Assembly: GCA_045632485.1 (NCBI GenBank)
Contig: JAZQWT010000155.1
Span: 7,626-71,625, forward strand
From: Acutalibacteraceae bacterium
GTDB lineage: Bacteria; Bacillota; Clostridia; Oscillospirales; Acutalibacteraceae
DNA length: 64,000 nt
Reading direction: 5' to 3'
The position numbers and the translations under genes are program-made. This document shows, piece by piece, positions 52,683 to 53,341 of the stretch. Each line of letters starts with the position of its first letter. Positions within the stretch are counted from its first letter, which is position 1. The notes beneath the pieces are model-generated. The model had not been told where the DNA came from. It was given only the letters and a program-made list of their open reading frames with translations, and made no database searches.

Positions 52683-52782
52683 AAGCAAGCGTGATAAATT
52701 CATAATCGGTGTTGCGATTCAAGGGATTTGAGTTATGAAGTCAAAATTTGAAGTAACCGACTATTGCAATACACGCTTGCTT
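52683..52782 (-). ncRNA. Y-RNA-like unit Y1 (short effector module)
   Basis: Outer helix AAGCAAGCGUG/CACGCUUGCUU. Internal loop UAUUGCA / GAAUUUAU. Inner helix AUAGUCGGU/ACCGAUUAU. Confidence 0.65.
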
Positions 52783-52792
52783 TGGTATAAAA

Positions 52793-52912
52793 AGCGGATA
52801 AAAAACTATAACGGAAATGACTTTCCAATTGTCAACCACAAAACAAGCGTTTTGGGATAGGACTCGAACCTATATATCGTGTTACGATGTAACCGTTATA
52901 TTCAATGCCGCT
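52793..52912 (-). ncRNA. Y-RNA-like unit Y2 with tRNA-like module
   Basis: AGCGG/CCGCU; loop CAUUGAA / GUUUUUUAU; UAUAACGG/CCGUUAUA. T arm AUAGG-UUCGAGU-CCUAU. Closed acceptor-like CCCAAAAC-GCUU-GUUUUGUGG. D arm UGAC-AAUUGGAAA-GUCA. Confidence 0.65.
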
Positions 52913-52924
52913 AATTATTGTATA

Positions 52925-53057
52925 AAAAGCAGATGAAAACGAAAAAGGAAATTTTAAGGGTTTTACTATTAAACTATGTCGCAAAGGCAACAACGGGAGT
53001 TGCACCCGTATCACTCGCTTAGCAGGCGAAGTAACCATTTTCTACAATACTGCTTTT
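52925..53057 (-). ncRNA. Y-RNA-like unit Y3 with degenerate tRNA-like module
   Basis: AAAAGCAG/CUGCUUUU; loop UAUUGUA / GUUUUCAU; GAAAAUGG/CCUUUUUC. T-like arm ACGGG-UGCAACU-CCCGU. Closed stem UGUUGC-CUUU-GCGACA. Confidence 0.6.
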
Positions 53058-53068
53058 TAACTTTTATG

Positions 53069-53190
53069 AAAAATCGGGTGAAATCTGAAACAGTCAAGAC
53101 TCACAAGGAGTTTGTAGGAGTCGAACCCACTATTAAACATTCAAATTGTTATTTTTACCGAAGTAACTGATTCATACAACGCCGATTTTT
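53069..53190 (-). ncRNA. Y-RNA-like unit Y4 with tRNA-like module
   Basis: AAAAAUCGG/CCGAUUUUU; loop CGUUGUA / GAUUUCAC; UGAAUCAG/CUGUUUCA. T arm GUGGG-UUCGACU-CCUAC. Closed stem CAAACUC-CUUGU-GAGUCUUG. Confidence 0.6.
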
Positions 53191-53199
53191 GCCAAATGC

Positions 53200-53341
53200 A
53201 AACGGATAAAAACCATAACAGTATCTTTTGTTCGTTGCTCTACCAATTGGGCTACCTCACCATATTGGCGGTGAGGGACAGGACTTGAACCTGCAACACG
53301 CGGATTTTCAGTCGAAGTATCTGTTATGTGCAATGCCGTTT
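53200..53341 (-). ncRNA. Y-RNA-like unit Y5 = circularly permuted tRNA body
   Basis: AAACGG/CCGUUU; loop CAUUGCA / GUUUUUAU; CAUAACAG/CUGUUAUG. T arm GCAGG-UUCAAGU-CCUGU. Then CCUCACC-GCCAAUAU-GGUGAGG and D arm GCCC-AAUUGGUA-GAGC. Confidence 0.7.

What the first reader, a model, noticed from the sequence alone, without database searches (positions are those of the whole stretch)
52683..53341. Five tandem Y-RNA-like genes sharing one conserved internal loop with fully covarying helices
On the minus strand from 53341 to 52683 there are five back-to-back units separated by only 9-12 nt: Y5 53200-53341, Y4 53069-53190, Y3 52925-53057, Y2 52793-52912, Y1 52683-52782. In each unit the 5' and 3' ends pair as outer helix, asymmetric internal loop, inner helix.

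- The outer helices all differ: AAACGG:CCGUUU; AAAAAUCGG:CCGAUUUUU; AAAAGCAG:CUGCUUUU; AGCGG:CCGCU; AAGCAAGCGUG:CACGCUUGCUU.
- The inner helices all differ: CAUAACAG:CUGUUAUG; UGAAUCAG:CUGUUUCA; GAAAAUGG:CCUUUUUC; UAUAACGG:CCGUUAUA; AUAGUCGGU:ACCGAUUAU.
- The loop between them is conserved. The 5' side reads CAUUGCA, CGUUGUA, UAUUGUA, CAUUGAA, UAUUGCA. The 3' side reads GUUUUUAU, GAUUUCAC, GUUUUCAU, GUUUUUUAU, GAAUUUAU.

A conserved loop flanked by compensatory helices is the signature of a protein-binding RNA module. The array ends 35 nt upstream of a Ro60/TROVE gene, which is where bacterial Y RNAs (YrlA/YrlB type) are found. I know of one to about four Y RNAs per bacterial locus. A five-unit, apparently polycistronic array on a phage is unusual. 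No ORF explains this 660-nt stretch.
Basis: partly seen in the sequence, partly recalled or inferred. Interest (0 to 1): 0.9.

Follow-up and report, generated by a model that had tools for sequence, protein, structure and literature searches.

The report
Five tandem phage Y RNA genes
A gut or rumen phage carries five back-to-back small RNA genes of the Y RNA type just upstream of its Ro60 gene; this is a known kind of RNA-protein partnership, but here it comes in unusually large tandem arrays that in related phages are mixed with real tRNA genes.

Summary
Five units (53341-52683, minus strand) each close their 5' and 3' ends into an outer helix, a conserved junction and an 8-bp inner helix.

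- **Model test.** A covariance model built only from relatives finds exactly these five units in the 64-kb window (46-112 bits).
- **Relatives.** It finds about 100 more units, all on the same strand just upstream of Ro60/TROVE genes in 26 related loci. Arrays hold 1-7 units.
- **Covariation.** Every helix pair shows compensatory changes. The junction is therefore a helix with one bulged base plus a 4/6-nt internal loop.
- **Unit types.** Y5, Y3 and Y2 carry YrlA-type permuted tRNA-like domains. Y4 has a T arm only. Y1 is a short YrlB-like hairpin.
- **Rfam.** YrlA matches Y5 at 30.8 bits, and relatives at up to 48 bits, all below the cut-off of 69.
- **Context.** The window is a temperate phage. 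RtcB lies upstream and NAD-salvage genes downstream.

Verdict: a real, divergent Y RNA array, typical of an undescribed clade of Ruminococcaceae-associated phages. No expression or binding data exist.

The parts
53367..53394 (-). Sigma-70-type promoter-like site (TTGTAA, 16 nt, TATAAT) for the array
   Evidence: Scan. The same -35/-10 pair is conserved at the same distance from unit 1 in 8 related loci (alignment A5). Function is inferred.
53342..53362 (-). Small conserved leader hairpin (AUGUGCU..AGCACAU) directly abutting unit Y5
   Evidence: Conserved as UGUGCU-N7-GGCACA in 9 loci. It is also seen as a stem-loop. Its role is unknown; it may be the 5' end of the primary transcript or a processing signal.
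53200..53341 (-). Y5: YrlA-type Y RNA. It has the Ro module, a T arm, a 7-8-bp closed acceptor-like stem followed by an encoded GCCA, and a D arm.
   Evidence: R1 112.4 bits. Rfam YrlA 30.8 bits. Fold; sequence.
53069..53190 (-). Y4: Y RNA with the Ro module, a T arm and one hairpin, but no D arm. Its junction pair is G:C instead of A:U.
   Evidence: R1 54.4 bits. Fold. Aligned with L029_633 and L031_2754.
52925..53057 (-). Y3: YrlA-type Y RNA with an anticodon-arm-like V hairpin (UUCGC-CUGCUAA-GCGAG), a T arm, a closed acceptor-like stem and a D arm
   Evidence: R1 101 bits. Rfam tRNA 29.6 bits on 52985-53054, driven by the V and T arms. V hairpin.
52793..52912 (-). Y2: YrlA-type Y RNA with a T arm, a closed acceptor-like stem (CCCAAAAC/GUUUUGUGG) and a degenerate D arm
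   Evidence: R1 84.9 bits. Fold; alignment.
52683..52782 (-). Y1: short YrlB-like Y RNA. It has the Ro module with an 11-bp outer helix, a pyrimidine-rich centre and no tRNA-like domain. A U-rich tract follows it.
   Evidence: R1 45.7 bits. RNAfold z = -5.2. The equivalent last unit is conserved in L002, L005, L029, L031, L033, L035, L036 and L038.
51224..52648 (-). Ro60 (TROVE plus vWA) gene, the presumed protein partner
   Evidence: Pfam. PDB phiLo phiRo60 at 1.8e-33. More than 5000 homologues, the top 120 at 74-93% identity.
53931..55163 (-). RtcB RNA ligase gene upstream of the array; the association is variable among relatives
   Evidence: Pfam RtcB at 1.3e-58. RtcB is also adjacent in L002 but absent from that position in L031, L033, L035, L036 and L038.
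53444..53896 (-). 150-aa ORF of unknown function between RtcB and the array promoter
   Evidence: No Pfam or PHROG match.

Best explanation
The 660-nt stretch is a promoter-driven, polycistronic array of five Y RNA genes that serve the phage's own Ro60.

Shown:
- Each unit has the same closing module: an outer helix of 5-11 bp in the window, a bulged pyrimidine, 2 bp, an internal loop of UG(C/U)A opposite G-N-W-U-U-U, an 8-bp inner helix, then UAC-UUCG.
- Helix sequences differ freely between units while the junction is fixed.
- The centres differ. Y5, Y3 and Y2 have a circularly permuted tRNA-like domain (V hairpin, T arm, closed acceptor-like stem, D arm) as in YrlA. Y4 has a T arm only. Y1 is a plain hairpin as in YrlB.
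- The array sits 34 nt upstream of Ro60 on the same strand, as in 26 related loci.

Inferred:
- The transcript starts at the conserved promoter and is cut in the 9-16-nt spacers. Host tRNA-processing enzymes probably do this, because relatives interleave real tRNAs at the same spacing.
- Each RNA binds Ro60 through the fixed bulged-helix junction. This mirrors the bulged helix of animal Y RNAs and the position of the GNCGAA motif in YrlA.
- The different centres tether or gate Ro60 towards different partners (PNPase-type exonucleases, tRNA-binding enzymes). Alternatively they imitate tRNAs.
- Given the neighbouring RtcB and NAD-salvage genes, the module most likely serves RNA surveillance or repair, or counter-defence, during infection.
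For: - Anatomy and folds.
- Independent model: R1 finds exactly 5 units in the window and 109 hits overall. All credible hits lie upstream of Ro60 on its strand.
- Covariation of the module: 96.6% of cells paired, against 67.5% in shuffles. All 16 pairs show double changes, and there are 291 double-change cells against 77 in shuffles and 24-65 in slid controls.
- The two junction pairs were not used to select units, yet hold in 66 of 66.
- Cells paired: T arm 98%, acceptor-like stem 90%, D arm 82%, all with compensatory changes.
- RNAalifold recovers the outer, junction, inner, T and acceptor-like helices on its own.
- Rfam YrlA hits.
- Ro60 identity and its closest solved relative, phiLo phiRo60, which binds two upstream Y-like RNAs and PNPase (PMC12135203).
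- Y RNAs lie within 4 kb of Ro60 on the same strand in 254 bacteria and 22 phages. In M. smegmatis, YrlA and YrlB are processed from a single precursor (PMC4201824).
- Conserved promoter and leader hairpin.
- Real tRNAs between units in relatives. Gaps of 82-108 nt correspond to one tRNA, otherwise 11-22 nt.
Against: - There is no expression, processing or binding evidence; everything is sequence inference.
- No unit reaches Rfam's YrlA gathering score (best 30.8 bits in the window, 48.1 in relatives, cut-off 69).
- The literal GNCGAAN0-1G motif proposed as the Ro site in YrlA is absent. The units read GGCAUUG or GGCAGUG at that position.
- The model R1 does not recognise the phiLo Yrl region.
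- The 3' partners in the first unit set were chosen by complementarity, which inflates the percentage paired, though not the two junction pairs or the CM result.
- The array lies in what could equally be the Ro60 5' leader.
Confidence: 0.8

Rival explanations
1. The five modules are cis-acting elements of the Ro60 mRNA leader. Ro60 binds them on its own transcript, or they terminate and attenuate transcription, so they set Ro60 expression instead of acting as free Y RNAs.
For: - The array ends 34 nt before the Ro60 start codon.
- The only good promoter-like site lies upstream of the array.
- Y1 ends in an 11-bp helix followed by AUUUUAUUUU, which resembles a terminator.
Against: - Five to seven different tRNA-like effector domains with covarying T, D and acceptor-like stems are not needed for autoregulation.
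- Real tRNAs sit between units in relatives, so the transcript must be processed.
- Characterised bacterial Y RNAs are cut from such precursors upstream of rsr (PMC4201824).
- This reading can be an added function rather than an alternative.
Confidence: 0.08
2. The units are tRNA-derived decoys or degenerate tRNA genes that act without Ro60. They could soak up host anticodon nucleases or tRNA-modifying enzymes, and their position next to Ro60 would be incidental.
For: - Rfam tRNA gives 29.6 bits on Y3.
- ARAGORN calls pseudo-tRNAs over the 5' halves of some relatives' units.
- V hairpins read UUCGN-CUNNNAA-NCGAG followed by AGGUC and a T arm in about 20 of 70 units.
- NCCA follows the 7-nt acceptor-like strand in 8 of 70 units.
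- A competitive-inhibitor role for YrlA's tRNA-like domain has been proposed (PMC7790460).
Against: - The most conserved part of every unit is the non-tRNA closing module, which is also present in units with no tRNA-like part, such as Y1 and the 62-67-nt units.
- A cloverleaf acceptor pairing is no better than chance: 2.19 pairs against 2.37 in shuffles.
- ARAGORN finds nothing in the window region.
- Linkage to Ro60 holds in all 26 loci.
- Decoy activity is compatible with Ro60 binding, so only the 'without Ro60' part is disfavoured.
Confidence: 0.07
3. The stretch is a repeat without function, or a chance resemblance.
For: None beyond the lack of experimental data.
Against: - CM E-values run from 1e-9 to 1e-27.
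- Compensatory changes occur in every pair.
- Synteny holds across Ro60 proteins down to 44-52% identity.
Confidence: 0.01

Closest known systems
YrlA (Rfam RF02553), the tRNA-like bacterial and phage Y RNA of Salmonella, M. smegmatis and mycobacteriophages (Chen et al. 2014, PMC4201824; structure in bioRxiv 10.1101/312249)
   Same: - It is encoded next to Ro60 on the same strand.
- The 5' and 3' ends pair into a two-helix stem with an internal loop.
- A conserved UA follows the second helix.
- The domain order is V, T arm, closed acceptor-like stem, D arm.
- T and D loop sequences are tRNA-like.
- A 7-bp acceptor-like stem, as in M. smegmatis YrlA, is present in Y5.
- The Rfam model matches significantly.
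   Different: - Scores stay below the gathering cut-off.
- The junction reads G-G-C-A-U/G-U-G-C/U-A, not GNCGAAN0-1G.
- The V arm of many units is an exact anticodon-arm look-alike followed by AGGUC.
- CCA is genome-encoded after the acceptor-like strand in the first-unit lineage.
- There are up to seven copies per locus, against the one YrlA plus one YrlB that have been characterised.
YrlB / Yrn2, the short hairpin Y RNAs that accompany YrlA or Yrn1 (PMC4201824)
   Same: Y1 and the last unit of every related array are short (73-100 nt). They lack T and D arms, have a pyrimidine-rich centre, and lie between the tRNA-like Y RNAs and Ro60.
   Different: There is no sequence similarity that could be tested, since Rfam has no model for these RNAs. 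Here the short unit shares the identical closing module with its tRNA-like neighbours.
Thermus phage phiLo phiRo60 with Yrl1 and Yrl2 (PMC12135203; PDB 9KOP, 9L5Y)
   Same: It is a phage-encoded Ro60 and the closest solved structure to the window protein. Its Y-like RNAs lie immediately upstream of the gene, with a stem-bulge-stem design. Binding to Ro60 and to host PNPase has been shown experimentally.
   Different: phiLo has two RNAs with a CGAA motif. The window-family model R1 finds nothing in that upstream region. The proteins are only about 27% identical.
Animal Y RNAs (Ro60 site: a conserved helix with a bulged cytidine)
   Same: The Ro-proximal helix is interrupted by a single bulged pyrimidine, mostly C, next to invariant bases. 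The terminal stem is formed by the 5' and 3' ends, and there are several paralogous Y RNAs per genome.
   Different: There is no Rfam Y_RNA hit. The loop sequence differs. Animal Y RNAs have no tRNA-like domains and are separate Pol III genes, not a tandem operon.
rsr-yrlBA-rtcBA RNA repair operon of Salmonella (PMC7790460)
   Same: Ro60, Y RNAs and RtcB lie side by side on one strand.
   Different: No RtcA or RtcR was found here. RtcB is missing from the position immediately upstream of the array in most relatives. The setting is a phage with a sigma-70-like promoter.

Membership tests
Bacterial/phage Y RNA (class, as used by Chen et al. 2014) | Encoded within about 4 kb of a Ro60/TROVE gene on the same strand | tested here: met
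   The array ends 34 nt upstream of the TROVE plus vWA gene on the minus strand. The same arrangement holds in 26 related loci.
Bacterial/phage Y RNA (class) | 5' and 3' ends pair into a long stem carrying a conserved protein-binding site, with total size of roughly 80-130 nt | tested here: met
   MFE folds. Covariation. Units are 100-142 nt.
Bacterial/phage Y RNA (class) | Stable RNA that binds and co-purifies with Ro60 | not testable with these tools
   This needs a Northern blot or RNA-seq, plus RIP or EMSA.
YrlA (Rfam RF02553) | Score at or above the Rfam gathering cut-off (69 bits) | tested here: not met
   Y5 scores 30.8 bits. The best relative scores 48.1 bits. The matches are significant (E down to 1e-7) but below the cut-off.
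YrlA | tRNA-like effector domain: T arm, closed acceptor-like stem and D arm, in that order | tested here: met
   Present in Y5, Y3 and Y2. Cells paired: T arm 98%, acceptor-like stem 90%, D arm 82%, all with compensatory changes. Y4 has the T arm only and Y1 has none.
YrlA | GNCGAAN0-1G motif near the 5' end (proposed Rsr site) | tested here: not met
   The same position reads GGCAUUG, GGCGUUG, AGUAUUG, GGCAUUG and UGUAUUG in the five units. The family consensus is G-G-C-A-U/G-U-G.
YrlA | Conserved UA after the second helix (the kink nucleotides in the Salmonella structure) | tested here: met
   In the 66 modules, U23 and C25 are invariant and A24 is present in 58. The correspondence with the structure is inferred from position.
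tRNA | Cloverleaf whose acceptor stem is formed by the 5' end and the strand after the T arm | tested here: not met
   ARAGORN finds none in the region. Complementarity is 2.19 pairs against 2.37 in shuffles. The 29.6-bit Rfam hit on Y3 rests on the V and T arms.
Animal Y RNA (RF00019) | Match to the Rfam Y_RNA model | tested here: not met
   No Rfam Y_RNA hit at E up to 10. This is a functional analogy only.
Animal Y RNA (RF00019) | Ro-binding helix interrupted by a bulged cytidine | tested here: met
   A bulged-pyrimidine helix is present: C 40, U 19, A 6, G 1 in 66 modules.

The most novel reading that the evidence does not exclude
The array is a phage 'tRNA-mimic battery'. Several Ro60-bound RNAs each display a different, nearly complete permuted tRNA. 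These carry anticodon-arm look-alikes with different triplets, an AGGUC variable loop, a T arm, and an acceptor-like stem with encoded NCCA that RNase P could open. They are co-transcribed with real tRNAs (Lys-UUU, Tyr-GUA, Met, Asn, Gln) in relatives. Together with RtcB, the battery would neutralise host tRNA-cleaving defence nucleases by decoying them and by routing damaged tRNAs to repair or decay. In addition, the loci would preserve intermediate stages of the proposed birth of Y RNAs from tandem tRNA genes, such as real tRNAs between units and one nested inside an acceptor-like loop.
Probability: 0.2. Interest if true: 0.8.

Novelty: new variant of a known kind. Interest (0 to 1): 0.6.

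Why it matters
Bacterial Y RNAs are known from a handful of experiments: one or two RNAs per locus in Salmonella, M. smegmatis, Deinococcus and phage phiLo. What their tRNA-like domains do is still open.

This locus, and about 100 homologous units from relatives, adds several things:
- A large natural series of Y RNAs shares one precisely defined Ro-proximal module but carries graded effector domains, from a full permuted tRNA through a T arm only to a bare hairpin.
- That series makes the Ro60 recognition code directly testable by mutagenesis. The elements to test are the bulged pyrimidine, the two covarying pairs and the invariant U-G and A.
- Interleaved and nested tRNAs, encoded CCA ends and anticodon-arm look-alikes bear on the tRNA-dimer origin hypothesis. 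They also bear on the idea that Y RNAs compete with tRNAs for nucleases.
- The phage clade appears abundant in public metagenome assemblies, judging from the number of close Ro60 homologues, and has no cultured or annotated member.

Tried and rejected
- **Cloverleaf reading of each unit's 5' half.** This was prompted by the Rfam tRNA hit on Y3 and by ARAGORN calls in relatives. It is rejected because the outer 5' strand is no more complementary to the strand after the T arm than in shuffled pairings.
- **Search for close cultured relatives.** blastn of the RtcB-to-Ro60 segment finds only distant RtcB matches. tblastn with Ro60 finds at most 34% identity.
- **IMG/VR scan.** It gave a single 5-kb contig.
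- **Model R1 on the phiLo Yrl region.** No hit. A 634-kb uncultured phage gave only a weak 16-bit hit sharing GAUACUUCGA.
- **Neighbouring small ORFs.** Pfam and PHROG searches on 50216-51207 and 53444-53896 gave nothing usable.
- **MAFFT alignment A1 of the 81 mini-modules.** It misplaced the one-base length difference. I replaced it with the 66 equal-length modules in A2.
- **Literature gaps.** The Annual Review on bacterial Ro60 and the supplementary tables of Chen et al. 2014 are not held. I could not check the highest number of Y RNAs already listed per locus.
- **V hairpin as a universal feature.** It is paired in only 70% of cells and is clearly present in about 20 of 70 units.
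Full report
**1. The observation**

The five units are Y5 53200-53341, Y4 53069-53190, Y3 52925-53057, Y2 52793-52912 and Y1 52683-52782. All quoted helix strands and loop strings are present.

- RNAfold puts the 5' and 3' ends of each unit into an outer helix, an internal loop and an inner helix. Z-scores run from -1.6 to -5.2.
- ARAGORN calls no tRNA in the region. The window's four real tRNAs lie at 10912-11264.
- At Rfam's gathering thresholds, the only hit in the region is a marginal tRNA match (29.6 bits, cut-off 29) on 52985-53054 inside Y3.
- With permissive thresholds, YrlA (RF02553) matches Y5 at 30.8 bits, with a local E of 2e-4 and a cut-off of 69.

**2. Surroundings**

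- The ORF 34 nt downstream (51224-52648, minus strand) carries TROVE (1.4e-35) and the Ro60 vWA domain (2e-12).
- The ORF upstream (53931-55163) is RtcB (1.3e-58).
- Downstream of Ro60 lie two unknown ORFs. After them come an isochorismatase-family protein, a PRPP-synthetase-like protein and a nicotinamide phosphoribosyltransferase.
- Portal, large terminase, a head-morphogenesis protein, DNA methyltransferases and a serine integrase show that the window is a temperate tailed phage.
- The closest solved structure to the Ro60 is phiRo60 of Thermus phage phiLo (1.8e-33). That protein binds two Y-like RNAs encoded just upstream of its gene and assembles with host PNPase (PMC12135203).

**3. Relatives**

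- The Ro60 has more than 5000 homologues. The top 120 are 74-93% identical, and many sit on contigs of 72-80 kb.
- No cultured phage is closer than 34% identity.
- Genome bins holding 68-70% relatives are labelled Ruminococcus or Ruminococcaceae.
- I fetched 38 loci. In every one that includes the upstream region there is a 0.5-1.1-kb gene-free gap before Ro60.

**4. The units are a family**

A pattern scan found the same module tiled in those gaps, and almost nowhere else in about 250 kb.

I then built a covariance model, R1, from 43 units of relatives, excluding the window and its 93% relative L029. Over the window plus 27 loci (225 kb, both strands) it gives 109 hits.

- The window has exactly five hits: 112.4, 54.4, 101, 84.9 and 45.7 bits for Y5 to Y1.
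- Its only other hit is a 20-bit cross-hit on a real tRNA.
- All credible hits elsewhere lie on the Ro60 strand just upstream of the gene.

| Units per locus | Loci |
|---|---|
| 7 | L015 |
| 6 | L023, L038; at least 6 in the truncated L007 |
| 5 | window, L029, L031, L033, L035, L025 |
| 4 | L002, L005, L022, L024 |
| 3 or fewer | more distant or truncated loci |

A five-unit array is therefore the norm for this clade, not an oddity of this phage. Spacers between 6-bp-core units are mostly 11-22 nt. Gaps of 82-108 nt each hold one real tRNA.

**5. Structure and covariation**

I analysed 66 distinct, equal-length closing modules (A2).

- The 6-bp outer and 8-bp inner helices are paired in 96% of cells, against 66% in shuffles.
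- All 14 pairs show double changes. There are 270 double-change cells, against 71 in shuffles and 22-63 in slid controls.
- One caveat applies: the 3' partners were chosen by complementarity, which inflates the percentage paired.

RNAalifold, run on the full-length alignment A3, independently recovered both helices, the T arm and the acceptor-like stem. Counted on A2, these pairs are A:U 64 / G:C 2 and U:A 47 / G:C 19, with none broken. They played no part in selecting units, so they are an unbiased confirmation.

The junction is therefore built as follows:
- the outer helix;
- one bulged base (C 40, U 19, A 6, G 1);
- two base pairs;
- an internal loop of U(66)-G(66)-C/U-A(64) opposite G(64)-N-W-U-U-U;
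- the inner helix;
- then U-A-C-U-U-C-G, with U, C, U and C invariant.

Window Y4 carries the G:C variant of the first junction pair.

In the full-length alignment the percentages of paired cells are 98% for the T arm, 90% for the acceptor-like stem and 82% for the D arm, each with compensatory changes. The V hairpin is paired in only 70%.

**6. What the centres are**

The alignment shows the following order: the closing module's 5' strand, UUA, V hairpin, 4-5 nt, T arm (GGUUCGAGUCC-like), a 7-nt strand, a short loop, the complementary strand, UA, D arm (GCUCAGUUGGUAGAGC-like), about 10 nt, and the closing module's 3' strand. This is the V-T-AS-D order described for YrlA (PMC4201824; bioRxiv 10.1101/312249).

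- Y5, Y3 and Y2 have all of it. Y4 keeps the T arm and one hairpin. Y1 has none and resembles YrlB or Yrn2.
- In about 20 of 70 T-arm units, including window Y3, the V hairpin reads UUCGN-CUNNNAA-NCGAG, usually followed by an AGGUC-type stretch (UGAU in window Y3). That is an anticodon arm plus a class I variable loop in all but name.
- In the first-unit lineage the 7-nt strand is followed by ACCA (8 of 70 units). Window Y5 has GCCA after an 8-nt strand. [quoted passage not shown]
- A true cloverleaf, with the outer 5' strand pairing with the strand after the T arm, is not supported: 2.19 pairs against 2.37 in shuffles.

Rfam YrlA matches 16 units in nine relatives at 29-48 bits, with E from 1e-7 to 3e-2, never reaching 69 bits.

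**7. Transcription signals**

A TTGTAA-16-TATAAT site lies at 53394-53367. It aligns with an equally placed TTGAAA/TATAAT pair in eight relatives. A conserved small hairpin (UGUGCU-N7-GGCACA) follows and abuts unit 1. After Y1 come a U-rich tract and a Shine-Dalgarno-like GGAG before the Ro60 ATG. These signals are consistent with one transcript covering the array and possibly Ro60. This is inferred, not shown.

**8. Mechanism**

Best-supported reading (confidence 0.8): the stretch is a polycistronic precursor that is processed into five Y RNAs. Each binds the phage Ro60 through the fixed bulged-helix junction.

- The junction occupies the position of the GNCGAA motif in YrlA.
- It also resembles the bulged-cytidine helix recognised by animal Ro60 (as summarised in PMC12135203).
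- The different centres would connect Ro60 to different partners or gate it.
- In known systems the partner is PNPase (PMC4201824, PMC12135203).
- For the tRNA-like domain, a tRNA-elbow-binding factor or competition with an anticodon nuclease has been proposed (bioRxiv 10.1101/312249; PMC7790460).

RtcB next door recalls the Salmonella rsr-yrlBA-rtcBA operon (PMC7790460). However, RtcB is not at the position immediately upstream of the array in most relatives, so the conserved core is the array plus Ro60.

Rivals:
- A purely cis-acting Ro60 leader (0.08).
- Ro60-independent tRNA decoys or pseudogenes (0.07).
- Chance (0.01).

**9. Comparison and novelty**

The locus works like, and is homologous to, the YrlA/YrlB-Ro60 system. 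It fails two literal membership criteria of YrlA: the Rfam cut-off and the GNCGAA motif. It differs in organisation in four ways:
- arrays of 3-7 units under one promoter;
- real tRNAs between units;
- one tRNA (53.5 bits) nested inside the acceptor-like loop of a unit (L038 2136-2201 within 2058-2267);
- minimal 62-67-nt units.

In the literature I could search, I found only one to two verified Y RNAs per bacterial or phage locus, plus up to four candidates in Deinococcus (PMC4201824, PMC12135203, PMC12282133). I found no description of such arrays. The main review and the 2014 supplementary tables were not available. I therefore rate the finding as a new variant of a known kind.

**10. Verdict**

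Interest is moderate to high (0.6). The partnership itself is known. What is new is the size of the arrays, the sharply defined and testable Ro module, the graded tRNA mimicry with interleaved tRNAs, and an apparently abundant, uncultured phage clade. No expression or binding data exist.

Noticed in passing
window 30705-30761, 42342-42400, 58272-58343, 58538-58595 (all minus strand): Four type-P5 twister ribozyme matches score above Rfam's gathering score (44-50 bits against 37.6), scattered through the phage genome on the gene strand.
   Followed up: no
window 10912-11264 (minus strand): A cluster of four tRNA genes, Leu(TAA), Leu(CAA), Ser(TGA) and Gln(TTG), lies next to the head-gene block, far from the Y array.
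   Followed up: no
window 47384-50192 (minus strand): Three NAD-salvage-type genes in a row lie just downstream of Ro60: nicotinamide phosphoribosyltransferase, a PRPP-synthetase-like protein and an isochorismatase/nicotinamidase-family protein. Together with RtcB and Ro60 this looks like an accessory or counter-defence island.
   Followed up: partly
L033 2272-2357 and 2501-2575; L031 2507-2581; L035 2352-2437; L038 2274-2359; L005 3791-3868; L009 494-567 and 845-916; L014 1387-1463; L026 2900-2974: Real tRNA genes (Tyr-GUA, Lys-UUU, Met-CAU, Trp, Glu, Thr; Rfam scores of 38-75 bits for those in the loci scanned with Rfam) sit between, before or after Y units in related arrays, at the usual short spacing.
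   Followed up: partly
L038 2058-2267, with a tRNA at 2136-2201: A complete tRNA-Met-like gene (53.5 bits) lies inside the acceptor-like loop of the first Y unit. Other first units (L005 3289-3487, L017 504-719, L008 652-833) carry long insertions that were not located within the unit.
   Followed up: partly
L008 34-396 and L017 926-1286: A tmRNA gene (tag DEDYSYGELKAA) lies upstream of tRNA-Asn, a Y unit, tRNA-Gln and a second Y unit in two more distant Ro60 loci.
   Followed up: no
L031 6160-6289; L002 101-205: Weak matches to the RT-2 RNA motif (27-28.5 bits, cut-off 40) lie beside a reverse-transcriptase (RVT_1) gene near the Ro60 locus in relatives.
   Followed up: no
L040 2041-2106 (uncultured 634-kb phage LR745206): A 66-nt hairpin about 400 nt upstream of a 34%-identical Ro60 shares the GAUACUUCGA block with the window family, at 16 bits with R1. 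This hints that the UACUUCG element is older than this clade.
   Followed up: no
L027 2665-2971 (Acetivibrio alkalicellulosi, 3.3-Mb contig): Two to three units of the same type lie upstream of a 52%-identical Ro60 on a contig of chromosome size, so the module may not be restricted to phages. I did not check whether this is a prophage.
   Followed up: no
window 52783-52792 and 52913-52924; L002 about 3864-3877; L005 about 3638-3650; L038 about 2857-2871: Spacers before the last units repeatedly read UUUUAUACCA(U/A). This may be a processing signal and was not analysed.
   Followed up: no
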